DNA of 64,000 nucleotides, taken from the NCBI GenBank assembly GCA_000934665.2, contig JYFJ02000072.1, forward strand, positions 62,001 to 126,000, given 5' to 3'. The DNA comes from Catajapyx aquilonaris. Its lineage: Eukaryota. The translations under genes were made by a program, and so were the position numbers. Positions 9,501 to 64,000 of this stretch are shown piece after piece. Within the stretch, counting starts at the first letter, position 1, and each line of letters starts with the position of its first letter. Below the pieces are notes generated by a model that was not told the origin of the DNA, made no database searches, and saw only the letters and a program-made list of their open reading frames with translations.

Positions 9501-10201
9501 TAGGTCTTAAATCTCCACGTGTGCCGGAGAACAAAGAGGAAGATGGGGAGGAAAAGGCTGATGGGGAGTACTGTCCTGATGTTGCGTAAGTAAATTTCTC
9601 AGCCATTTCCTCCCGACTTAACGACACACTTGGCATTCAAATGTGATGAGCGAGGGCGCTTTGTAGATGGAGCAGAACAAATTGGGGGGATAAGTTATCG
9701 CGACGGAATAGGAAGAGGTTGCTATCAGGCCTTTAGGGAGAGCCAGCCGATGGGCTGCTTCGGATTCGAAGGCGACAGTCAAGTCGAGGAAGGACCAGAT
9801 ATCGCGACCCGCTTCTTGGGAACGGATCAAAAAGACTAATAAGCGAGGGTATAAGCTTAGGGGAAGATCAAGCGAATTTTGATGTAAGGAGAAAGAGCTC
9901 TCGATGGAAATTCATGAGCAGAGGGTTCAGGTGGGCGATATTAGTCAGCTGCAGGAGATGTGATCTTATCTTCATCTTTATGGATCTGGTGCTTAGGCGT
10001 GCGGGAGCCGTTGAGCTCCATCCATTTTCTGGAGTGTAATGATTCATGTAAATGGTGTAGCTCATGAATGGCACTGTGACATAATGTTGCAGCTTTGTTG
10101 GTGTGAGACTGTGAGTAAGTGAACTGTTGTGATATAAGAAGCTTGGAAGCTCGCCTTCGTCCGACGTCACTGCCTTTTGAACATCCATCCACCGCTAGAA
10201 G

Positions 10202-10724
10202 ATGAACCGCATCTATTACGACGACCACAACAATGTTGTGGTGGGTGAAGATGACATCAACGAGAACCTCCGATTCTCCAAAGTGCCCCTGGTCACTCCG
10301 GAGGACTATCTTCTGGCCAATGGACCACCCCCATCGCCGCTTGCGACCACTTCTCTGGACCAGTCTCCGGAGGATGTTTCCCGGAGCTCCCCCAAGGCCA
10401 AAAGAGTGTATGGTGAGGCGCAGGTGCCAGAACCGAGGTGGAAGAAAAGTTACCACCAAAGTTACGGTCGGTTTGTGAGTCGCATGACCCGCATGGACAT
10501 CTCCAGGCGCTTTACAGTCGACTTGCATGGCTTGGAAGAGAAGTGGAGGAGGTCTGTAGCTGCATCCATGGGATGCAGGAGCACCATGGAAGAGGCGTTC
10601 CTCAAGTTCAGGAAGGATCGTTGCGAGCAGGCGTTCGCGTTCAAGAAGGATTTCAAGTTCGGGGTACGAAGATCTCCCAGCTCCAAGTCGTCCGCTTCGA
10701 CAACGCTCTCCACTGCTGAAACAG
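10202..10724 (+). CDS. Candidate first coding exon of the DBS/MCF2L-like RhoGEF (long isoform)
   Basis: ATG-initiated 174-codon frame with coding-like composition (MNRIYYDD...WRRSVAASMGCRSTMEEAFLKFRKD...TAET). It ends at donor AG|GTTTGT in phase 1, matching the phase-1 acceptor TTGCAG|AT at 23556. The linkage is inferred, not shown. Confidence 0.55.
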
Positions 10725-10819
10725 GTTTGTAAACAGTATTTACCGCGAGATGACTTTTGGTACATGTGTACGAACTGGGGTCCAGTGTGAACTGGTAGCA
10801 TATTCAAATGGGGCGCCCG

Positions 10820-11460
10820 GGACCACATCCCTCTGCCAAGTGGACCCTTCCTTCGACGCATGCGCCGTGGCATCATCCGCACAGGGTGGGCTGAGGAGGG
10901 GGTGAGGGGATAGAGGCGCCCCCACCCCCACCCCCACCCACTGCCGACAGATCGAGACGCCGGCTGTGGTGGGTGGCTGGCGCTTGGCCTCTAAGCGCCA
11001 TGTTGACGGCCTTGGACCCCTGGCACTCAGGACACCAGGCGGAGGGCAGGGGAGGCCCCTGGGCGGAGGAAGGGGCGGCCGAATAGTCCGGGAGGGACCC
11101 CGGCCTCCGGAGACGGGATCCGCGCAGCTGCAAGGGTGAGCATGCGGGGACGGGGCAGGCACGCATCGCCCCTACCCTGCGGTGCCCTTTAGGCGCAGTT
11201 TTGTGCGTCTCGTTTGGTTGGGGGCGGGAGGGGAGATCCACCCATCTGCCATCGGCGGCAGGGGACGGAGGAAGGGGAGGCTTGCAAATCTCGACCTTTT
11301 CGGCCTGCTCGTGCTTGTCACAGGCGCCGCCTCCTCTTCCGACCTCGCCTCTCGCCCAGCTATGTGTGCCTTCCTTCCACACGTGCTTCCTGTGTTCGAC
11401 TCACTCGTCGCACGTGCCCATGTTTGCCCATTAATCCGTCCTCACTCACTCACTGATTGA
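10820..11460. promoter_or_regulatory. GC/CpG-rich island, candidate promoter or non-coding first exon
   Basis: Markedly GC- and CpG-rich with several GGGCGG boxes, in contrast to the AT-rich, CpG-poor DNA from 11.5 kb on. It lies upstream of the splice acceptor that precedes the 13204 ORF. Confidence 0.45.
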
Positions 11461-12011
11461 CCTGTCCACAGTCACTGATGGCCTGCACATGTCATGGAAA
11501 AAAAACACTAGTTCGTATTTATTGTGTGTGACTGCTTGTAAAGGGGTGTGGAAATGCACAAGAAGAAGAAAAAAAACATAGGCTGCTAGACAGGCATTGC
11601 TACCTGCCAGTAAAAATTTCGGTGCATGTTGTTCAGTCATACACGATTAGGCAATTAATTTAAATTCAGCAAGTTGACCAGGGCTTTTGATAGTTGGTGT
11701 TTGAAATGAGAGCCTAAGAGTGCCGCAACGCATCTCGCTATAGTGGATAACAGCTGTGAATGTTGACAATCCCATTAAAGGAGTTGTTCCTAAAGTATAT
11801 CAGACCAGCATTTTTCACGTCCCCCTAAATCCATGTCATGATTTTCCAGACCCCCATCCAGAGGCACATAATCCTCCTGTTAATAATATTTTAATAGTTC
11901 CCCTCCTCAAGCTTAGGATATTTGCTGCCACAAAACTAGACTTTGAATGCTACTATTGGCCTTGCTACAAGAAACTAGGAATCTGTAATTGGCTAATTGT
12001 ATAAAAGGGTA

Positions 12012-12624: not shown

Positions 12625-13203
12625 TCACCAGTATTTGTAACCTGTAGAAATTGAAATCATTATTGAGATTAACTGGTTTAAGTTGGCTGTCGGTAATATA
12701 GCTATAATTTTTTGAAAACTGTGACCTACCATTCTGAATAATTTCATATGATTCGATTTAAAATGCCTCCATATCATGGTCGGTTATTGTGGCACCAACT
12801 CCCTTCCCTGACCCATACCATGTTAAGGTACTGTACTTACCGATAGACATTAATAAGCAAATCAAGCCTGGCCATTATACTAAAATTAATACTTCATACT
12901 CCACATGGCAGGATCAGTATTGTGAAAAGGAGATGAGTCATGTGTAACCCACATTGTTGTGGTTAGTTGAATGCATGCTACTAATGAGGGGGAAGTCACT
13001 TTGGAACTTTGTCATACATTTCACCAGAAATACATGAGCCGATCTTACTTTCTTACAAGGTTAAGGTACAAGTCCACAAAAAGTCTGGCTGGATTTACCG
13101 AAATCTAAATCCCATCTTATGCAAAAATGTGGAGTGACTTACCTCTCTTGTAGCTAGTCAGGCACACATTTGTAACAGGGGTCATTCTTGGCAGTTAAGC
13201 ACA

Positions 13204-14733
13204 ATGGTGGATGCAGCAGAGAAAGAAGCAAGTGAAGTACTTCACTCCCTCCTGGCTGTGGAGCGCATAGAGAAGCCTACAGGTACCAACCAATTAGTGA
13301 ACAGTACAGCTGTAGTTTCTTCTGAGATGACTTCACTGGATCCAGCCCACTCCAAAGTAGGGGACGATGAATGGCATCAATCATTCCCTCCACGTTCTCT
13401 GGAGCAGCCATCCTTTCCAACACAAGAGCAAATGACATGGGACAACCACGTGAATCCAGAATTTGATGTTGCAGCACCAAGTGATGGAGAGGTTCCCCAA
13501 GACAACCAGGAGCCATCAAATCCTACTACATCACCTAAGAAAAAGAAGCGAAAACTGGCTGACCTGGTGGCTGCAGGGTTTGACCCAACCAAACTGGAGG
13601 ACAATCCAGAACAGGTAAAGGAGCGATTCACACAAGGATGTGAGTGCCAGGAGGACAACTGCTTCAAAGGAATGAACCCAGAGTTTGTGTATCGCCATCG
13701 TCTCAACATTGCAGAGCTAACAAAGGCAGAGCATGACATGTATCTGATGGGGGTGACCATGGCTTGCCTTGCAAATCCAGAAGAGACTGTTAGGCACAGG
13801 GAACGGAAAAGGTTGCGTGCCCGGTATGTATTCCAAGGGAAAGAAGTGTGCCTAGATGCATTCTTGTATCTTGAGAACTGCACTCACTACCAGCTAAAAC
13901 GCATCCGGAAGCATGTGATGACCCATGGAGTGACCCCAAGGATACATGGGAACCATGGAAAGAAGCCACACAACACTTTCTCTTTGGACATATATCAGCA
14001 TACTACTGCCTTTCTGCAGCATTACATACGAACATCAGTGTTAAATTCTGGAAGTGGCAGTCACGGCCAGCTGGGAAACAAGACTGGAAAAGTTGGACCA
14101 GGACATAAGGGTAAAAGTGCAGTGGTGAACCTTCCACAGGATGTTACAAGAAAGAAGATACATGTGGCATATCGCCAGTATTGTGCTCAGTTTGAACCCT
14201 CCATCAAAGTGATGGGCTACTCCAGCTTCCGGCATTTTATGAAAGAGCAGTTTCCAAATGTGAGATTTGCCAAAACTGAGCCCGGGAAGAGTGGAGTTGC
14301 AGGATCTGCTGGCGTCAGTGCAGGAGCTGGAGAAAATGCTCCAGTTTCCACCACCTCCACACCAGCTTCAGCCACAGTGTTGCCACCAACATCGCCCAAG
14401 TCAACCTTACCTACCATTCCCAACACTAGTGCAACCATCATACAGCAAGTGGCAATACCAGTTGTAGTTACAGCTACTAGTAGTGGTTCAGCAAGCCAGC
14501 AAGGACAAATTCAAACAGCAACTCAAGTGACAGCAAGTAGTGGGACTTACAGTCAGCCTGCTTTTGTAGTGACTCCTTTGTCACACTTGACATTGACTCA
14601 ATCTGAACAGGTGGGTTTTCCAACATGTCAGCTGCAACAGGTTGCTGCTGTGTATCATCACCAACCAGCCCAGATGACCATGGCTGTCACCAATGCTCCA
14701 TCCCACGCCAATTATGTCTTCCCATCTCTCTGA
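13204..14733 (+). CDS. Intronless 509-aa protein, probable domesticated Sola-type transposase N-terminal (Cys/His, DNA-binding) region with an S/T/Q-rich tail
   Basis: Uninterrupted ORF. Acceptor TCTTGGCAG sits just upstream of the ATG and AATAAA is at 14855. NLS-like PKKKKRK. The core CECQEDNC...YVFQGKEVCLDAFLYL...RIRKH...PRIHGNHGKKPHN...LPQDVTRKKIH..Y...C...F..FMKEQFPNVRF matches the layout I recall for Sola-like transposase N-termini. No DDD/E domain follows. Confidence 0.85.
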   Translation: MVDAAEKEASEVLHSLLAVERIEKPTGTNQLVNSTAVVSSEMTSLDPAHSKVGDDEWHQSFPPRSLEQPSFPTQEQMTWDNHVNPEFDVAAPSDGEVPQDNQEPSNPTTSPKKKKRKLADLVAAGFDPTKLEDNPEQVKERFTQGCECQEDNCFKGMNPEFVYRHRLNIAELTKAEHDMYLMGVTMACLANPEETVRHRERKRLRARYVFQGKEVCLDAFLYLENCTHYQLKRIRKHVMTHGVTPRIHGNHGKKPHNTFSLDIYQHTTAFLQHYIRTSVLNSGSGSHGQLGNKTGKVGPGHKGKSAVVNLPQDVTRKKIHVAYRQYCAQFEPSIKVMGYSSFRHFMKEQFPNVRFAKTEPGKSGVAGSAGVSAGAGENAPVSTTSTPASATVLPPTSPKSTLPTIPNTSATIIQQVAIPVVVTATSSGSASQQGQIQTATQVTASSGTYSQPAFVVTPLSHLTLTQSEQVGFPTCQLQQVAAVYHHQPAQMTMAVTNAPSHANYVFPSL

Positions 14734-44522: not shown

Positions 44523-44529
44523 NNNNNNN
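44523..44529. other. Assembly gap (7 N) after a G homopolymer
   Basis: nnnnnnn directly follows a poly-G run. Confidence 1.
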
Positions 44530-55264: not shown

Positions 55265-57232
55265 TTAACGACGAATCAGGCTCGACTGTCTTCGTGCTTT
55301 AAGTAGCATTTTTCTTTTTTCGAGAGCCTTTTCAATTTCTCCTTTGCTCGGGGTATGTTCGTCATATTTTGTGTCAATGAACTCTGTCCCCAATCGTCCA
55401 CTAGCTGCGTTATGATGTAGGACTATCTTAAGATGAGCTGCCATCTCCTCCAGCAACTTGGTGTAGCTGATAAACAAAACTATCATTAATGAAGAACTAG
55501 AATAAATCAGTAGGCCACCTACTTCTCCGATGTCGTTTCCATTTGTTTCAGAGCCAATAGTAAACGATTGATCCAAGCAGGATTAGTGAGGACAGTTTTT
55601 GTAGATACAAAGTCGTCGTGTCTCAAATGCCTTTCAAATTCTTCAGCCAAGGAAGAAAAATCTGCATCTGTAAAAGGGCAAAAGAATGTTCATCAAGTTC
55701 GAAACAAAAATTCATAATTATATTCTCGAACCTTTGAATGTTATTTCTGCTTTCACCACTCTATTAGTCTGAAGCCGACGAATAACATCTTTCTTCTCTT
55801 TCACAGCTAACTCTCTCTCGCGAGTAATATCTTTCTTGTTCTGCGTGGTGGTTTCTTGAACGTTCAAAATAATGATTCCCACAAATATGTTGGTTAGCAG
55901 TAAGTGACCCACACAAACGAAAGCTACGGCGAAAGCTCTTCCGAAATTACGCCATCCTGATTTTTCTAGGGCGATCACTACATCAGTCCAGCCGTCGATC
56001 TAGTTGCCAAAGTTAGTTTTATAGACGTTATAAAGCATTGCTATAATTAACGAAACCTACCGTAACCCATGAGAACAACGTCAATGTAGCCATCCCAAGA
56101 GACCCAAAATATTCCTGATTTCCCTTGAACAAGTTGAATCCAACTAGAGCAAATAGGTACATGACCAATAGCACCAGAAAAACCACGCTCAGGACATTGT
56201 GTGCCAAAGTGTCGAGCAAGGCTACCACCAACACCTGCAGATATACCGGTACTGTATGTCGCATCAAAGGGCTAAAACTATTAGCACCAAGGCAACATTA
56301 ACGTACTTGTAAAGTGGATGAAAACGAGACACTTCGTAGAGTTCTCAGAGTTCGAAAAGCTCTCAACACCTTAAACACTTGTGCGCCCTTGGTTCCAGTG
56401 CTGACAAACGACAAGAGCTCTTGAGCCATTGATCCGACAAGGATGGCGAAGTCAAAGATGTTAAATCCTGAGTCCCAATATTGAGTTGGCTCGGCGTATA
56501 TTTTGAACACAAATTCCAGGGTGTATATGGCCAGGAACACCTTCGCAAGAAGAAGGTAATTAATAATTGGTGAATGTTGATTAAAATTATGTTGACCTAC
56601 TTCATCCACTGCTGACAAAAAACCCTGCAAAAATGCAAGTGTGCGAAAAGTGTCCAGACACAAGAAGACTGCGTTGATCAGAATGCAGAGCATGATAAAA
56701 TTTTGAAACCAGTTTGATTCTGTCATGACCTGCAATGAAAGTACTCTCATTGTCATGTGTGATGTCTGAATATGGGGCGTACTGTACCTTTATGAAATCA
56801 TGAAGTTCTTTGTCTGGACGTATGCTCTCATCTTCTTCCTCGTCCGATGAGGATTCCCAATCCTGTGCATCATCTTTGCCTAAATACGTCTCCAACACTA
56901 TCGTCTCCTTCAATGACTTTCTTTTATTTCCTTGTCTCAATCTCCATGCTCGAGGAGAAAGTATTATCCTGGCAAAAACCCTAGCTATTCTTCTCGGTGC
57001 ATTACGAATCTGCCGGAAGATGCGTGCTAAAATACTCCTAGAATTTAATGCACGGTTTAATTCATGTCTTATTCGCTTCTGCTCTGCCTGCGACATCGTG
57101 CGTTTGGTCTGAAAAATGATATGAAAATATTTCAACTTGTATATCTTGCAGAATGATTTATATTGACGAAGCAGTTACCTTGCCCTGTGCATCATTCTGT
57201 AATAATTGCTGGCGTTGCGTCGGAGTCAACAT
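55265..57232 (-). CDS. CATSPER3: CatSper3-like sperm cation channel alpha subunit
   Basis: Eight phase-consistent exons: 57232-57179, 57108-56788, 56729-56601, 56540-56307, 56234-56061, 55999-55732, 55667-55523, 55466-55265. Single 6-TM domain: YTLEFVFKIYAEP..YW.SGFNIFDF, S4 KVLRAFRTLRTLR, pore TIDGWTD, S6 TNIFVGIIILN, a coiled coil and FSSLAEEFERHLRHDD. Confidence 0.85.
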
Positions 57233-57521
57233 GATGCTGGCCTAACACTTGCGACGGTGTACCACTTCAGATATACGACCAGCCGGGTTATAGCACGGCA
57301 ATTCAATCGTTACCAAGCAACAATATAATAGTATCTAATGACTGAAAAAATAGGGGGTAAAAATATCCCAACTCCAGTCCTGGAGCAGGTGGAACTGTGA
57401 GGTCTTGAACATAGATCCTGCAGCAGAACTTGAGTTAGGGAAAATTTAAAAAACGCAAAAGTCATTGTTGAAAATAATTGTTTGAGGTTACAGTATAATG
57501 CATGTATAGCACACATAAAAT

Positions 57522-59183
57522 TCAGCAGAGGATTTTGAGAAGGCGTGCGAAACGCAAGATGTCTTCGAAGCTGCAGTAAAGCGGAGATGGCGACACCCGT
57601 AGATATCCAGGCGGTCTGACATCACACTGAAAAATATACAGTACATGACCAATCTGATACGTGCACGATATTCAATTGGCGACATACCACAACTCCTCTG
57701 GACTCCAGAAATTGATGCACTTTTTTGATGTCCACGTTTGCAAAGTTTAGTGTGATAAGAGAACCTCTCTGAAGTGGATCTTGTGGAGTGACCACTTGGA
57801 TCTGATTAGGGTCAAAGTTTAGGCGAATAAGAAGTTCAAGGTATTCAGAGAGGCAGCGTTGCTTTTCCCGAATTTCGTCCATGCTTGTCAATGAGAATAT
57901 TTGCAAAGATGCATATAAAAGGCTTGCATGCCAAGGAGAAGGTGTTGTAATCCGGAAGGCTCTTGCTCCCTTGGAGACATCTATGTGTTCTTCCATGTTG
58001 AAACGAGTCTCAATTTTGTTTGACCACCACCCCACCAACGCTGGAGTTGTCGCTTGATGGCGATTGTGCACAAATATTCCTCCTAAGCCTCCAGCACCAC
58101 CACACAAATACTACCAGCAATGAAATGTATGAACAACAATTCGAAGAACGAGAGTAGCTGATACTTACTTTGTTGGAGCACCAGCAAGCAAAGTCCAGTC
58201 CCCACGAGTGAAGCTCCAGAGGAACATTTCCGACTGCATGAGCCAAGTCCCAGCCCACCAAACATCCCCGAGCTCTTGCCATTTGAGTAATCTTGGGAAT
58301 GTCTAAGAGCTGACCTACACCATGAAACATGTCAGTTTGAGCCAGTTGTTGCACGATACCACATTTTACCTGTTCGGAAGTTGATCCCTCCTAAAAACAC
58401 CACTGATAGGGTATCTCCATGCTCATCGATGGCTGCAATAATGTCTTCATTTCTAAGGAGGAATTCGCCTTTCCGAGGACCTACTTTGATCATGGCTTCT
58501 TCAATTGTGTGCCCATGGTGTTTAACCTGAGATTGCAACATGTACTGAAAGAATTGATGTTAATTAGTATGGACATCACTAGTCATGCATCATTAGTCGG
58601 TACCCTGTCAGAAGGAAAGGCTCCATCTTCGAAGAGTATCTTGAAGCGTGTTTGCGTCGGCTGGTAAAATGACAGCAGGAGCAAACCTATGTTGACACTG
58701 AGGCCATTGAGAAGAGCTACCTCTCCTGCGACCGCCCCGACCAATCTTTGCAAGCCTTCTTCGCAGGCTTCATCGCAGGAAATGACAGGAAGAGATCCGT
58801 GGACATAGCTGTGGGCGCCCCTGTTGGCAATGTGACACAATAAGAATCACTTTGTTTTACAATAACACGTGTATGGTACCATTGACCCCAGCTGTCCAAC
58901 TGCTCTTGGATGTACTTGTCTGCCGTTTTTGGCTTCAATCCAAGGGAATGCGTGCACAAGTATATGCAGTCATCATCAGGATGTACCGAATTCAAATCAC
59001 CTGCAAGTTGTTCAAGAAGAGTTTACTTTTATTCAGGACCGTGAGAATATTTTGCTTACAGTTGGGCAGTTGCTTCATTTTTGGAATGGTAAAATGCGAG
59101 CGAAGGTCCTTCAAAGGATCTAGAGCATCCATCATCTGAGCAAATTCCGTGCTTTCAGGATTCACATTGAGAGCCTTGGACAT
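57522..59183 (-). CDS. KYNU: Kynureninase paralogue A (divergent active site)
   Basis: Exons 59183-59060, 59000-58880, 58820-58604, 58544-58370, 58314-58169, 58110-57688, 57626-57522. Motifs: [57 protein letters not shown]. The reading frame is intact. The true start may lie upstream (in-frame exon 59337-59273). Confidence 0.9.
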
Positions 59184-60659
59184 TTGCAGTGGAGTAATAT
59201 CTGGGTGGGTGGCCTTGAAATGAGAATGGCACTAATTCCGCAGCCTGTATGTCAGGAGTAACTTCACCTTACCTTAAACTTGGCAAAAGAAATGGTGCCG
59301 ACCTCGTCCTTGGCATTCGATAATTTCCTAGCAGGACCTGCAAAATGTTGGAAATTTATTTCATTTGAAGCGTTGTGTAATCTGGCATAATCTTATCGGT
59401 GAACATTGGCTTCACAACCATTTACTGGCAAAACACCATTGTGTTCAATACGCACCAAGTAATATTGTTGAAGTTTTAAAATAGGCGTATGGAGCAAATA
59501 AATTTCAGAGAGCACAATGAAAGTACCGGTACTACAAATAAGTGCAATTAAACTGATATCCTTTAAAATATTAAGATATATACGGTATTTAAAATGTGGC
59601 AACAATTTCTGCACGTAATAGGTAGTACAGTAGTTGGGAGATAGCGATTATGTGAACTTGCACTGGCTTCATTCCAAATATGACAAACTTACTTGGCACT
59701 TCCAAAGATGCTCTAGGTGCACTAAATGGCATCCAAGATACACACACATTATCCGTCATAGTGCTTTCGAAACTGATGACTCGTGTGCAGCTGACAAGAC
59801 CTAACGTGAGACTGGTCCAGCTACCCAACGAAACGTGGCTTTTATACAGCGAAGTTGTTGATCATCAGGCTCCAACTTTCCAGGAACAGAGTGTGACGTC
59901 AAACCCACATTGGAGTCTCGTGATATGGCTATTGGCATGGGTATACACGGGGACGTCTTCATGTGTTACCCAGCAGATAAAACTTTCCATTTCATTCTTT
60001 CTCAACATATTGTCTACCAGCAAGATTGTTGTGGTTGGCTTTATCTTCTCAATCAGTCACTCTTACAACACATGCGTTCAGGGTAAAGGACGGGTGTGTA
60101 AATTTTTTAACCTTCTGTGAGCTTCCATGTTTGCGTAAACTAGTTACTTGCTTTTCACTTGACCGATAATATTTTCTGACAAAAATGTAGACGTGTTGTT
60201 TATCTGAAAAATATGTTTGCTTACGTGCTTATCGGAGTCTGAGAGGTGCCAAACCGAGCAAAATGTTTGGACGACTGGTCGCGGAAATAGTTCAAATTCT
60301 GAACGTCAGGATATTATGACACTAACGTTTCACCGCAACGCTACACCTGCGATCTAGTACAGTACTTAGTACTTCAGTTGATTGGCTCTTCCACTAATCG
60401 ACGAAACCTATCTTCATTGGGATACAGTGTTCACTTTTCTGTTTAGTTTTCATTGCACTAGTTGAGAAGTCGTCTATGATACAATAGTATTGCGTAATCA
60501 CATTTTAATAAATAAAGAACCCCTTGAAAATGACAAATAACAATAGGTTCAAAATTATTGTAAGATAATAACATAGGAAATTTTATTACTGCCGACACTA
60601 CTTCGTTACGTCAGGTTATAATAATAACATAATTATAAGTTCCCAAGGATTCAGTGCGC

Positions 60660-62415
60660 TCAGTGCTGAGCAACAGTTATGGCATCCTCAATGGCCAAGA
60701 CGAAACGGTAGACATCCTTGAAAGTGTTGTACAATGGCACAGGAGTCACCCGCAGAAAACTAGGAGGGCGTAAGTCAGCCTGAAAAGCATTGTTACCAAT
60801 GTGAGTGTATAGTATACCAGTATGTTTCATCAAACAAAGATAGCTACTAACCACAACACCCCTTCGCTCCAGTTCGTGAAACACCTTGGCGAGTTCGACT
60901 CCATGCAGAAGGAGTGTCAGCTGTGCTCCTCTTTGCGTCGGGTCTCGAGGGGTCACGATTTCCAGTGTGTCAGGACGAAAGTGCAAGTTCAGTAGCACCT
61001 CCAAGTAGCCGGTCATTAGGCGCTGCTTTCCCCTCACTTCCTCGATGCTGGTTTGTTCAAACACCTTGTAAGAAAGAAGACAAGTGGTGTTGAAACACCA
61101 AGGGAACATCCAGGGTCGGTTGAACAAAAAATTACCCGCAGACTGGCCATCAGCAGAGACATGTGCCATGGAGATGGATTGCTCATTCGGAAGGCGTCTG
61201 CTCCTTCTGCCAAGTCCACATCTGGTCTCATCTCGAATCTGGTTTCATGTCTTCCGGACCACCAGCCCTGAAGTCGAGGATGCCAACGGGTATCGGTGTG
61301 ATGACGCTTGTGCACGAAGATCCCGCCCATTCCTCCTGCTCCGGAGTTCAGGTACTGGAAAGAACACGCTGTCACCAAGAAAAATCGACTGCCTCGGATT
61401 ATGTTTCTTACTTTGTAAGTGCACCAACAAGCAAAGTCCACATTCCAGTTGTGCAAGAAGAGCTGGACGTTGCCCACAGCATGAGCCAAGTCCCATCCGA
61501 CCATGCAGCCTTTCGCCTGAGCTGCTGATGTGATGGACTCTGCATCCAGCATTTGACCTGAGGAAACAGTGGCACATGTCAGCACTGAGAATTTTTGGTG
61601 ACATGGGACAGTACCAGTTCTGAAGTCAACGACGTTGAGAAACACGACAGCGATGGAATCTCCTTCTTTTTCAATAACATCTAGGATGTCTGAATTGCGC
61701 AAGATGTGCTCTCCAGGACGAGGACGCAGAAGAATCAGTGCCTCGGAAGGTGAATGGCCATGAAGTTTTGCTTGTGTTTGTGCCGCATACTAGAACGTCA
61801 GCCATTTTATTTCGGTACAGATAAAATTTGATGTGCTCTTACAAGATCAGAGCTGAAGGCACCCTCTTCCATGAGGATCTTGAACCGTGTGTCATCAGGA
61901 CTATAAAAAGTAGTCAGCAGGACATGAATATTGACAGTAAGGCTGTTCATCAGAGCAACCTCGTCCTGCTCTGCCCCTACCAACCGCCCCATGCCCTTCT
62001 TTGCAGGCTGGTCGCACAAGGCAGCAGGCCATCTTCCATTGTGATGCATGTGAACGCCCCTGAAATGAGCCAAACACATCTAATATTGCAGTCGGGAACA
62101 CCCCCGACAAACTCACCATTTCCCCCAGTTGGTCAGTTGCTCCCGAATGTATTGGTCGGCCATCCATGGTTTCAACCCCAGCGAATGGCCGCAGAGATAA
62201 AGGGCCTCGTCGTCCAGGTCAGCCAGGCCAATGTCAACTGCATGGTTGGTGATGTCAGTGTCAGTTTTTTAAGTATCGTAATCTGACTTACTGTTTGGAA
62301 GGTCCCTCATCTTGGGCATAGCAAACTGTCCTCGAAGAGGCCGCAAAGGATCGTGCTCGTCCATAAAATTGGCAAATTCCACCGAGTCCACTGAGACGTC
62401 GCTGACTTGTGCCAT
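60660..62415 (-). CDS. KYNU: Kynureninase paralogue B (canonical)
   Basis: Exons 62415-62292, 62237-62117, 62059-61843, 61789-61615, 61557-61412, 61354-61136, 61064-60852, 60779-60660. Motifs: [81 protein letters not shown] on the minus strand at 60582-60587. The start codon is uncertain. Confidence 0.92.
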
Positions 62416-64000
62416 TTTGTTAAGGACGTCATCCGGTCTTTGCTTTTGTTCCTTGGAGTCAATAAGATTATGTCAAAAACAATGATCTAGTATATTCAAA
62501 CACTGCAGTGACAAACGGATCGCACTTGGCATTCGTTCCATAAGCGCTGGATCTGCTCATGGTCCTTGGCATTTAATATCTCGCTCGTCGTAGATAATGC
62601 AGCTGTAAATGTAAACGATGCAAACAACCCGCTGTAAATTTCTACAAGACAAATTTAGCATACTTAATCACACAAGGTTTCTGATTTTGCAATGACTACA
62701 GGAATGCGAGATGACCTTTCCTTGTGTCAAAGGTTTCCTGGGTTATCAGTCTTAAAATGTCCTCCAAAAGCTTTTAATGCGTATGAAGCACACACGTATA
62801 AACTGCACTAATCAGGCTAATTACTGCGTATGTAAATTAAGCGCAACTTACAGTCCCTCCTTAGGAATCCTTCTGGCAAACTTCCTCTTCTGGATGGAGG
62901 TGAAAGGGCAGATTGAGAGAGCCAAAGAGGTGGTGTACCTCTACTACACACAGCCATGGTGCCACTCTAATGGTGGCTCTTCTTCAACAAAGGATTCCAC
63001 TCTTTAAGAGAGACGAATCTTACCTCGTTACAGTTCGCAAGAAGCCTCTCCCGGTTCTGTCACGAGGAGCAAGACGATCGCGAGGTCACCCTCGACCCTT
63101 GACCACTTCTTATCAGAGAAACTGAGCAACTCCTTATTTGCACCATCGAATGTTGCGCTCTTCGAACAATCGGGAAGTGTTGTTGGGGATTGGTTGGATA
63201 CAATAATAATAGTGGGAGGATTTCAGCTCTTATCTGGATGGGACAAAGTTTACTATTGCGTTGTAACTCCATCAGCCAGTATTACAGGCTCGATTACAGG
63301 CCTATAACATGATGATGCTGATGTGTTAGTTATGAAATGTTTTACGTATGCAATGTAAGAATCTTTTGACCAATAGGAAGCTTTCAGGGACATGGGTATT
63401 CCCAATTTCCATGAGGGTAAAGAACAGATAACTCATCCAGGGTCAAAGGGCACCACGGTTGCACTCCCAATGCCACCTGCAGACCAAAATAATCAGCCCG
63501 TGATAATAATGTTCAGCCATCATCAATTGACCTAAAATTGGGACGTGTTTCATAGTCTTCAGGATTTACAGGTGACGATGAATATAGTTATCTAATAGTT
63601 TCAAGGTTCTGATATATTCCACCCACATGCATGATAGTGTGTTGCTATTTACATTATAAGATTTTATTTACTCTCAAAGTTCTTACCTTTGGCAGCATGC
63701 CCTAAATGACTGGACACATTAGCCAAGGAGACCTTGCTTGCATGATGACCTTGAGCAGATGTGGAGTAAATACATCAAGTAGATGCACACTTCTGATTAG
63801 ATTGGATTGGTATATTGTATGCAATGTGCTCAGTGTGTATTGGTTTCAAAGATATCACCATGGTGTGTCATGTAATGTAATGACAAACATGCAAAGTATA
63901 GGAGAAAACTTTTCTTAATGCAGCTTACAGTTGATAGTAATATACATGTTGAACGAACAGAACAATACGGTACTACTACTTTACAGTTTAATTGCACATA

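What the first reader, a model, noticed from the sequence alone, without database searches (positions are those of the whole stretch)
57522..62415. Tandem kynureninases with opposite substrate-specificity residues: paralogue A looks switched to the bacterial type
Seen: paralogue B reads GVHMHHNG and FRMSNP, keeping the residues that align by eye to human His102 and Ser332-Asn333. Paralogue A reads GAHSYVHG and FRITTP, with Tyr at the His102 position and Thr at the Asn333 position. Established: human KYNU uses His102/Asn333 to select 3-hydroxykynurenine, Pseudomonas KYNU has Trp/Thr there and prefers kynurenine, and H102W/N333T switches the human enzyme. Inference: after duplication, copy A converged on a kynurenine-to-anthranilate enzyme or took a new substrate. 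This would give an animal a split pathway like the inducible/constitutive pair in fungi, possibly feeding anthranilate-derived defence compounds, fluorophores or pigments.
Basis: partly seen in the sequence, partly recalled or inferred. Interest (0 to 1): 0.85.

Follow-up and report, generated by a model that had tools for sequence, protein, structure and literature searches.

The report
Tandem kynureninases, one with rebuilt pocket
Two neighbouring, expressed copies of the tryptophan-breakdown enzyme kynureninase sit here; one is ordinary, and the other has replaced the residues that recognise the usual substrate, a change that shrimps and a deep-sea snail made independently, so it probably does a different, still untested job.

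Summary
Two intact kynureninase genes lie head to tail on the minus strand. Spliced contigs of one public run match both without a mismatch.

- Copy B (upstream) keeps His102, Tyr275, Ser332 and Asn333 (human numbering).
- A also has Asn in place of Tyr275, the residue next to the PLP lysine, and Cys279.

A is not decaying. It keeps Lys276, Asp250, Arg434 and Ser75. It matches a 77%-identical relative at 117 of 127 family-conserved columns, against 158 of 229 other columns.

The five-residue signature (102/275/279/332/333) is Y-N-C-T-T in A. Penaeus 'kynureninase-like' proteins also have Y-N-C-T-T, and a Gigantopelta paralogue has Y-N-C-S-S. Trees and an AU test (p 0.0003) indicate separate duplications, so the pocket was rebuilt at least three times.

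A has most likely left 3-hydroxykynurenine. A plain 'bacterial switch' is too simple, because bacterial enzymes keep Tyr275, and H102W/N333T alone harms the human enzyme. The activity is untested.

I rate it a new variant of a known kind, interest about 0.6.

The parts
57486..59836 (-). Copy A transcript (divergent kynureninase paralogue). Exons: 59836-59693, 59337-59273, 59213-59060, 59000-58880, 58820-58604, 58544-58370, 58314-58169, 58110-57688, 57626-57486. The predicted protein is 490 aa from the ATG at 59759. The stop codon is at 57524-57522.
   Evidence: Gene model. Seven of its eight introns are listed as joints of a 1586-nt spliced contig.
60533..62602 (-). Copy B transcript (canonical kynureninase), the part covered by the laid contig. 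Exons: 62602-62526, 62451-62292, 62237-62117, 62059-61843, 61789-61615, 61557-61412, 61354-61136, 61064-60852, 60779-60533. The stop codon is at 60662-60660.
   Evidence: Gene model. Eight introns are listed as joints of a 1768-nt spliced contig.
62852..62957 (-). Inferred first coding exon of copy B. It has an ATG at 62957 and a GTAAGT donor after 62852, and gives a 517-aa protein.
   Evidence: The frame is open and the donor is present. The B contig has about 193 nt more than the exons laid within 57400-62600. This exon is not directly confirmed, because it lies outside the laid stretch.
58805..58807 (-). Copy A codon TAT, giving Tyr at human position 102. Copy B has CAT (His) at 62044-62046.
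58169..58174 (-). Copy A codons AAC AAA, giving Asn275 and Lys276 (the PLP lysine). Copy B has TAC AAA (Tyr-Lys) at 61412-61417.
58102..58104 (-). Copy A codon TGT, giving Cys at human position 279. Copy B has AAC (Asn) at 61346-61348.
57943..57948 (-). Copy A codons ACA ACA, giving Thr332-Thr333. Copy B has AGC AAT (Ser-Asn) at 61178-61183.
59837..60532 (.). Spacer of 696 nt between the 3' end of the B contig and the 5' end of the A contig. A TATAAAA lies on the minus strand at 59846-59840, just upstream of the A contig's start.

Best explanation
A DNA-level tandem duplication of an animal kynureninase gene produced two genes that are both transcribed and correctly spliced.

Copy B is the ordinary 3-hydroxykynurenine hydrolase of the NAD/kynurenine pathway. 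It keeps His102, Tyr275, Ser332 and Asn333.

Copy A is still a PLP enzyme of the same fold and is kept by purifying selection. The cluster of residues that holds the 3-hydroxyl group and ring of the substrate has been replaced: His102Tyr, Tyr275Asn, Asn333Thr, Ser332Thr and Asn279Cys.

My reading is that A no longer specialises in 3-hydroxykynurenine. It most likely cleaves a non-3-hydroxylated aroyl-alanine, with L-kynurenine (giving anthranilate plus alanine) as the first candidate.

Shown here: the gene structures, transcription, the residue placements, the constraint on A, and the independent recurrence of the same signature in other animals. Inferred: the change of substrate. Unknown: the actual substrate, the catalytic rate, and the physiological role.
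For: 1. Both genes are intact and spliced, and the listed contig pieces show no differing letters.

2. Residue mapping was done by two methods. A keeps Ser75, Phe165, Asp250, His253, Lys276, Trp305, Phe314, Met316 and Arg434. It changes 102, 275, 332 and 333.

3. In docking reported in PMC11329768 (passage read), Tyr275 and Asn333 hydrogen-bond the ring hydroxyl of 3-hydroxykynurenine and His102 faces the ring. The changed residues therefore form one functional patch. The 272-289 loop, which holds position 279, is where activity-raising mutations for kynurenine lie.

4. Constraint: A and the 77%-identical P0001 agree at 117 of 127 family-conserved columns against 158 of 229 others (Fisher p 1.8e-7). 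P0001, P0222 and P0154 pass the TIGR01814 kynureninase cut-off with 330, 384 and 454 bits against 246.

5. Recurrence: 10 of 344 aligned rows have Asn275. None of the 10 has His102 or Asn333; two of them have a gap at 102. By contrast, 267 of 331 Tyr275 rows have both.

6. The signature Y-N-C-T-T is shared with Penaeus indicus, P. chinensis and P. monodon. Y-N-C-S-S is found in Gigantopelta aegis.

7. Trees:
- B groups with (A, P0001), SH-aLRT 95.
- The Penaeus copies nest in Malacostraca, SH-aLRT 99.
- The Gigantopelta copy is sister to its own canonical paralogue, SH-aLRT 99 and 81.7% identity.

8. An AU test rejects A, P0001 and the Penaeus copies as one clade (lnL difference 64.3, p 0.0003).

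9. An aromatic residue at 102 with Thr333 occurs in the ten W/F/Y-102 + Thr333 rows of the alignment; the five that carry a name are from Chlamydia/Chlamydiales, Bacteroidota and a Chitinophagaceae bacterium, the other five are unnamed. PMC11329768 calls Trp102/Thr333 the hallmark of kynurenine-preferring enzymes.
Against: - No enzyme assay exists for any protein with this signature.
- All ten aromatic-102/Thr333 rows keep Tyr275. I recall, without having seen the paper, that the Y226F mutant of the P. fluorescens enzyme loses about 3000-fold activity. Asn275 may therefore cripple the normal hydrolysis rather than retune it.
- PMC11329768 states that the Trp102/Thr333 motif is neither sufficient nor necessary for high kynurenine activity.
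- P0001 comes from an unnamed contig. It could be another paralogue in the same lineage rather than an orthologue in another species.
- Run X1's library type is not on record, so that it is RNA is inferred from the splicing.
- The clade tested by AU was named after I had seen a first tree.
Confidence: 0.55

Rival explanations
1. Copy A has acquired a different reaction or an unrelated amino-acid substrate. Loss of the phosphate-linked Tyr275 disables the retro-Claisen hydrolysis. The enzyme now runs other PLP chemistry on a substrate still held by Arg434.
For: Tyr275 is kept in 331 of 344 family rows and is named among the conserved active-site residues in PMC11967295 (passage). The identical replacement by Asn in at least three separate duplicates points to selection for something specific rather than drift. 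Lys276, Asp250 and Arg434 are kept.
Against: The rest of the aromatic pocket (Trp305, Phe314, Met316, Phe165, Ser75) is unchanged, which fits a kynurenine-like ligand. No candidate substrate emerges from the gene neighbourhood.
Confidence: 0.22
2. Copy A is a weak or inactive subunit that acts through heterodimers with B. Each active site is built from both chains, so an A/B dimer would have one site combining B's Tyr275-Lys276 with A's Tyr102/Thr333 (a bacterial-like arrangement) and one site combining A's Asn275 with B's His102/Asn333.
For: The figure legend read in PMC11329768 assigns Phe165, Asp250 and Lys276 to one monomer and His102, Trp305 and Asn333 to the other. The duplicates lie next to each other here. 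In Penaeus chinensis and Gigantopelta, the two copies are on contigs of identical length, presumably the same chromosome. Both copies occur in the same run.
Against: Nothing tested here bears on dimer composition. At 51-54% identity the interface may have diverged. Co-expression in the same cells is unknown.
Confidence: 0.1
3. The substitutions are functionally neutral and A is a redundant 3-hydroxykynureninase.
For: A passes as a kynureninase by sequence family, and most pocket residues are kept.
Against: His102 and Asn333 are described as specificity residues. The same three positions changed together in independent duplicates, while their sister copies kept them. The A-type branch is longer than its canonical sister in all three pairs: 0.71+0.16 against 0.52, 0.76 against 0.17, and 0.16 against 0.08.
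Confidence: 0.05
4. The Asn275 genes descend from one ancient animal paralogue. Their grouping with local canonical copies is an artefact of gene conversion between neighbours or of long branches.
For: The five-residue signature is identical in A and the Penaeus copies. The genes sit on the same chromosome as their canonical partners, which would allow conversion.
Against: The AU test rejects the arthropod Asn275 genes as one clade (p 0.0003), even though the signature columns were left in the alignment. Long-branch attraction would pull them together, not apart. The Gigantopelta pair is 81.7% identical over 465 columns. Intron positions are shared between A and B.
Confidence: 0.08

Closest known systems
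Human kynureninase KYNU (PDB 3E9K, 2HZP)
   Same: Same family and fold. Single exons of A and B align end to end with it (E 1e-23 to 1e-9). The PLP lysine, Asp250, Arg434 and Ser75 are kept in both copies. B shares His102, Tyr275, Ser332 and Asn333 with it.
   Different: A has Tyr102, Asn275, Cys279, Thr332 and Thr333. Both window proteins appear to have longer N-terminal regions.
Bacterial kynurenine-preferring kynureninases (P. fluorescens 1QZ9; Chlamydia and Bacteroidota enzymes)
   Same: An aromatic residue at 102 and Thr at 333. A Chitinophagaceae enzyme even has Tyr102 with Thr333.
   Different: All keep Tyr275. 1QZ9 is only weakly similar to A (28 bits on exon 6). A is not of bacterial origin: it groups with B, shares its introns and lies among animal genes.
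Engineered human enzyme HsKYNase_66 (PDB 7S3V)
   Same: It was made kynurenine-selective by changes at 102 and 333 plus changes in the 279-283 loop, the same places that changed in A.
   Different: It has Trp, not Tyr, at 102 and Ser332-Thr333. It needed many further laboratory mutations. Its residue 275 was not in the alignments I saw.
'Kynureninase-like' proteins of Penaeus (XP_063614951, XP_047468827, XP_037778563) and Gigantopelta aegis (XP_041360763)
   Same: Tyr102, Asn275 and Cys279, with Thr-Thr (Penaeus) or Ser-Ser (Gigantopelta) at 332-333. Each has a canonical partner gene on a contig of the same length.
   Different: They are only 45-47% identical to A and arose by separate duplications. 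They are uncharacterised as far as my searches show.
Fungal inducible and constitutive kynureninase pair
   Same: Two kynureninases in one organism with a division of labour between kynurenine and 3-hydroxykynurenine. This is recalled; only the citation of Soda and Tanizawa 1979 was seen, in a reference list.
   Different: Every fungal sequence in my alignment keeps His102, Tyr275, Ser332 and Asn333. Yeast kynureninase gains kynurenine activity while keeping His102/Asn333. The fungal solution, as far as seen here, does not use this residue switch.

Membership tests
Kynureninase (EC 3.7.1.3; TIGR01814, Pfam KYNU_C PF22580 + Aminotran_5) | Whole-protein score above the curated model cut-off | tested here: inconclusive
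   Only single exons of A could be given. Exon 6 scores 79.3 bits and exon 3 scores 54.4 bits on TIGR01814, against a whole-protein cut-off of 246.4. Exon 6 passes PF22580 with 30.7 bits against 27. The 77%-identical P0001 passes TIGR01814 with 330.4 bits.
Kynureninase (EC 3.7.1.3) | PLP-binding lysine (human Lys276) with Asp250, Phe165 and His253 | tested here: met
   All are present in A, B and P0001.
Kynureninase (EC 3.7.1.3) | Substrate carboxylate and carbonyl binders Arg434 and Ser75 | tested here: met
   Present in A and B. P0001 lacks the N-terminal part that would hold Ser75.
Kynureninase (EC 3.7.1.3) | Conserved active-site Tyr next to the PLP lysine (human Tyr275, P. fluorescens Tyr226) | tested here: not met
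   A and P0001 have Asn, B has Tyr. Tyr is present in 331 of 344 aligned rows.
3-Hydroxykynurenine-preferring (eukaryotic) kynureninase class | His102 and Asn333 | tested here: not met
   A has Tyr102 and Thr333. B meets both.
Kynurenine-preferring (bacterial) kynureninase class | Trp102 and Thr333, as defined in PMC11329768 | tested here: inconclusive
   Thr333 is present. Position 102 is Tyr, not Trp. Tyr or Phe at 102 with Thr333 does occur in bacterial enzymes.
Kynureninase (EC 3.7.1.3) | Hydrolysis of kynurenine or 3-hydroxykynurenine to (3-hydroxy)anthranilate and alanine | not testable with these tools
   This needs recombinant enzyme and kinetics.

The most novel reading that the evidence does not exclude
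Animals have repeatedly evolved, from duplicated kynureninase genes, a second enzyme class defined by Tyr102, Asn275, Cys279 and Thr or Ser at 332-333. In this class the whole 3-hydroxyl-recognition patch is rebuilt. It may be the first natural animal enzymes that prefer kynurenine, making anthranilate. Alternatively it may carry out a new PLP reaction, with the hydroxyl of Tyr102 from the partner chain taking over the role of the lost Tyr275.
Probability: 0.35. Interest if true: 0.8.

Novelty: new variant of a known kind. Interest (0 to 1): 0.62.

Why it matters
The passages I read in PMC11329768 describe His102 and Asn333 as present in all eukaryotic kynureninases. Copy A and its counterparts in shrimps and a vent snail are natural animal exceptions. 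They also lack Tyr275, which 331 of 344 aligned family members keep.

Three or more independent duplicates reached the same set of replacements. That is a natural experiment on how this active site can be re-specified.

The question has practical weight, because human kynureninase is being engineered to degrade kynurenine for cancer immunotherapy (the same paper). Animal enzymes that solved a related problem by another route would be useful templates.

For animal metabolism, such an enzyme would add a branch: kynurenine to anthranilate, or a new product, beside the 3-hydroxykynurenine route to NAD and ommochrome pigments.

Tried and rejected
- The whole genome of the window is not held, so other pathway genes and further copies could not be sought.
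- The word-based search with A's exon 6 gave only 2 hits.
- Searches with P0001 and with a profile of five Asn275 proteins found no closer relative than P0001 itself. The best others were 46-48% identical.
- The metagenome scan gave 80 loci, all at most 44% identical. No DNA of a close A-type relative was obtained, so no dN/dS could be computed. dN/dS between A and B was not attempted, because at 51-54% protein identity the synonymous sites would be saturated.
- Sequencing runs: no RNA holder is listed. The one holder, X1, has no library type on record. Depths of the two contigs (21.3 and 72.1) cannot rank expression.
- Papers not held: Lima 2007, Lima 2009 and Phillips 2011. No held paper contains both 'kynureninase' and 'Y226F'. 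The role of Tyr226/Tyr275 therefore rests on one passage each in PMC11329768 and PMC11967295 and on my recall.
- Literature searches for kynureninase paralogues or kynureninase-like genes in arthropods, Penaeus or Gigantopelta found no description of this class. Supplements were not opened.
- The scan's earlier notes hold nothing on this genome. The notes found under 'kynureninase' concern prokaryotic pathways.
- No structure or complex was predicted.
- Considered and rejected: horizontal transfer from bacteria or fungi as the origin of A, suggested by its short introns and its bacterial-like residues at 102 and 333. A groups with B inside an animal clade and shares B's intron positions.
Full report
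**What is there**

The region holds two kynureninase genes in the same orientation on the minus strand. Copy B is upstream (higher coordinates) and copy A is downstream.

Reading the frames and locating splice sites gave complete open models with only GT-AG introns.
- A has seven coding exons counted from the Met at 59183.
- B has eight coding exons counted from the Met at 62415.
- The first five of these exons have identical lengths in the two genes (124, 121, 217, 175 and 146 nt).
- B has one extra intron inside what is A's 423-nt exon.

This is the pattern of a DNA-level tandem duplication, not a retrocopy.

**Transcription**

One public run, X1, holds half of the sampled words of window 57400-62600. 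Its library type is not on record and its organism is coded.

Laid on the stretch, X1 gives two contigs of 1586 and 1768 nt, one per gene.
- The contigs skip exactly the predicted introns. Fifteen joints are listed, all CT..AC on the plus strand, which is GT..AG on the minus strand. One further joint was not shown.
- The listed pieces have no differing letters.
- I take the run to be RNA-derived because both contigs lack all introns. That is an inference.

- With them, A encodes 490 aa starting at 59759.
- B encodes 517 aa if the exon at 62852-62957 is its first coding exon. That exon lies outside the laid stretch. It is inferred from the open frame, the donor site and the contig's extra length.

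HMMER alignments of single exons to human kynureninase give these placements:
- A has Tyr at 102 and Thr-Thr at 332-333.
- B has His at 102 and Ser-Asn at 332-333.
- P. fluorescens 1QZ9 aligns Gly-Thr at 332-333.
- The engineered human enzyme 7S3V has Trp102 and Thr333.

A MAFFT alignment of 272 family members, numbered on a 465-residue mammalian sequence whose His102, Lys276, Ser332, Asn333 and Arg434 fall at the human numbers, gives the same result.

In A the tyrosine next to the PLP lysine (human Tyr275) is Asn, and Asn279 is Cys.

Tyr275 is present in 331 of 344 aligned rows. Ten rows have Asn, two have Gly and one has Phe.

A keeps Ser75, Phe165, Asp250, His253, Lys276, Trp305, Phe314, Met316 and Arg434. 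The cofactor site, the carboxylate anchor and most of the aromatic pocket are therefore intact.

In the passages I read of PMC11329768, docking places Tyr275 and Asn333 in hydrogen bonds to the ring hydroxyl of 3-hydroxykynurenine, with His102 facing the ring. The 272-289 loop is a site of mutations that raise kynurenine activity. The positions changed in A thus form one patch around the 3-hydroxyl group.

**Is A alive?**

The only close relative found is P0001. It is a 374-aa protein from an unnamed contig, 76.6% identical to A, and carries the same five residues.
- A and P0001 agree at 117 of 127 columns that are at least 80% conserved among 266 canonical family members.
- They agree at 158 of 229 other columns (Fisher p 1.8e-7).
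- That is the mark of purifying selection on the enzyme core.

P0001 could be an orthologue in another species or a further paralogue. Either way, two diverged A-type genes keep the core.

P0001 passes the TIGR01814 kynureninase cut-off.

**Where else does the signature occur?**

Across 344 aligned proteins the five positions 102/275/279/332/333 read as follows:
- Y-N-C-T-T in A, in P0001 and in 'kynureninase-like' proteins of Penaeus indicus, P. chinensis and P. monodon. A partial P. vannamei protein has N-C-T-T.
- Y-N-C-S-S in two isoforms of a Gigantopelta aegis protein.
- Asn275 also occurs in a Dinothrombium mite protein (I-N-N-S-H) and in an unnamed protein, P0107.

None of the 10 Asn275 rows has His102 or Asn333; two of them have a gap at 102. 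Of the 331 Tyr275 rows, 267 have both.

The aromatic-102/Thr333 rows that keep Tyr275 and carry a name are bacterial: Chlamydia pecorum, Chlamydiales, Bacteroidota and Chitinophagaceae. Five of the ten such rows have no name.

**One origin or several?**

I built two trees.
- A FastTree tree of 267 rows, after dropping 5 rows with under 70% occupancy.
- An IQ-TREE tree (LG+C20 PMSF, quick search) of 54 rows. I chose these from the 344: the named animals plus all animal rows with a non-Tyr residue at 275.

The two trees agree:
- B is sister to (A, P0001), SH-aLRT 95.
- The Penaeus copies sit inside Malacostraca, SH-aLRT 99.
- The Gigantopelta copy is sister to the canonical Gigantopelta gene, SH-aLRT 99. 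The two are 81.7% identical.

Holding A, P0001 and the three Penaeus proteins together costs 64.3 log-likelihood units (p-AU 0.0003). The signature columns were left in the alignment, which biases toward joining them. The group was named after I had seen the first tree.

In a three-pair comparison (A/B, Penaeus pair, Gigantopelta pair), positions 102 and 275 are among only four columns where all three divergent copies share a residue that none of their canonical sisters has. The six mixed labellings of the pairs give 0-2 such columns and the mirror labelling gives 4.

The divergent copy has the longer branch in all three pairs.

I conclude that the same pocket was rebuilt at least three times after duplication.

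**What it most likely does**

The shared direction of change argues against drift and against a redundant 3-hydroxykynureninase. That direction is loss of every residue touching the 3-hydroxyl group, gain of an aromatic residue at 102, and a small hydroxyl residue at 333.

The nearest natural analogy is the bacterial kynurenine-preferring class, so kynurenine to anthranilate is my first candidate.

Two facts temper this.
- Those bacterial enzymes keep Tyr275. I recall, without access to the paper, that the equivalent Y226F mutant of the P. fluorescens enzyme is about 3000-fold less active.
- PMC11329768 reports that H102W/N333T alone damages the human enzyme, and that the motif is neither necessary nor sufficient for kynurenine activity.

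A new substrate or reaction therefore remains a serious rival. So does a role as a subunit of mixed dimers, whose hybrid active sites would combine B's Tyr275 with A's Tyr102/Thr333.

**Comparison with what is known**

By sequence family, A is a kynureninase. It fails one conserved-residue test (Tyr275). It fits neither the eukaryotic His/Asn class nor, strictly, the bacterial Trp/Thr class.

PMC11329768 states that His102 and Asn333 occur in all eukaryotic species. PMC11967295 lists Tyr275, His102 and Asn333 as conserved from worm to human.

My literature searches found no description of this class. The library lacks most subscription papers, and I opened no supplements.

**Source organism**

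The organism is not identified. The window carries ordinary animal genes: a DBS-like RhoGEF, an ankyrin-repeat protein, a cation-efflux transporter and an ion channel. The kynureninase tree places both copies among arthropod sequences, but with only moderate support (SH-aLRT 89, with unresolved forks inside the clade).

**Verdict**

The stronger result is the recurrent, constrained Tyr102/Asn275 class. I rate it a new variant of a known enzyme kind whose function must be settled at the bench.

Noticed in passing
P0027, P0277-P0280 (Opisthorchis, Clonorchis) and P0073, P0281-P0284 (Gordionus): Liver-fluke and horsehair-worm kynureninases have Tyr at position 102 but keep Tyr275, Ser332 and Asn333. 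This is a further exception to 'His102 in all eukaryotes'.
   Followed up: partly
P0155, P0157, P0160, P0164, P0174 and others: Many canonical crustacean kynureninases have Cys instead of Ser at position 332. The pattern H-Y-N-C-N is seen in 32 of 344 rows.
   Followed up: no
P0063 (Styela clava), P0082 (Oratosquilla oratoria), P0066 (Dinothrombium tinctorium): Other animal 'kynureninase-like' proteins have odd active-site residues: Gly275 in the tunicate; Thr102, Phe275 and Trp332 in the mantis shrimp; Ile102, Asn275 and His333 in the velvet mite. All sit on long branches.
   Followed up: partly
window 59693-59759, 59273-59337; 62852-62957, 62526-62602: Both genes have two extra 5' coding exons, giving N-terminal extensions of 54 aa (A) and 73 aa (B). 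A short NAKD motif is shared between them. B's extension is rich in Ser, Arg, Pro and Leu and might be a targeting sequence.
   Followed up: partly
window 61065-61135: B has a 71-nt intron that splits what is a single 423-nt exon in A. This is an intron gain in B or a loss in A after the duplication.
   Followed up: no
window 56298-57230 (minus strand): Directly downstream of copy A lies a gene with an Ion_trans domain (69 bits), preceded by an acidic, Ser-rich N-terminal region with no Pfam match.
   Followed up: no
window 13138-14733 (+) and 9941-11434: A 531-aa uninterrupted open frame has no Pfam match. Next to it is a block of the highest G+C content in the window, 0.535 at 10001-12000, with long overlapping open frames on both strands.
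   Followed up: no
window 44523-44529: A run of seven N, which is an assembly gap.
   Followed up: no
window 57400-62600: The introns of both kynureninase genes are uniformly tiny (53-74 nt). The RhoGEF gene at 24-30 kb appears to have its exons spread over several kilobases.
   Followed up: no
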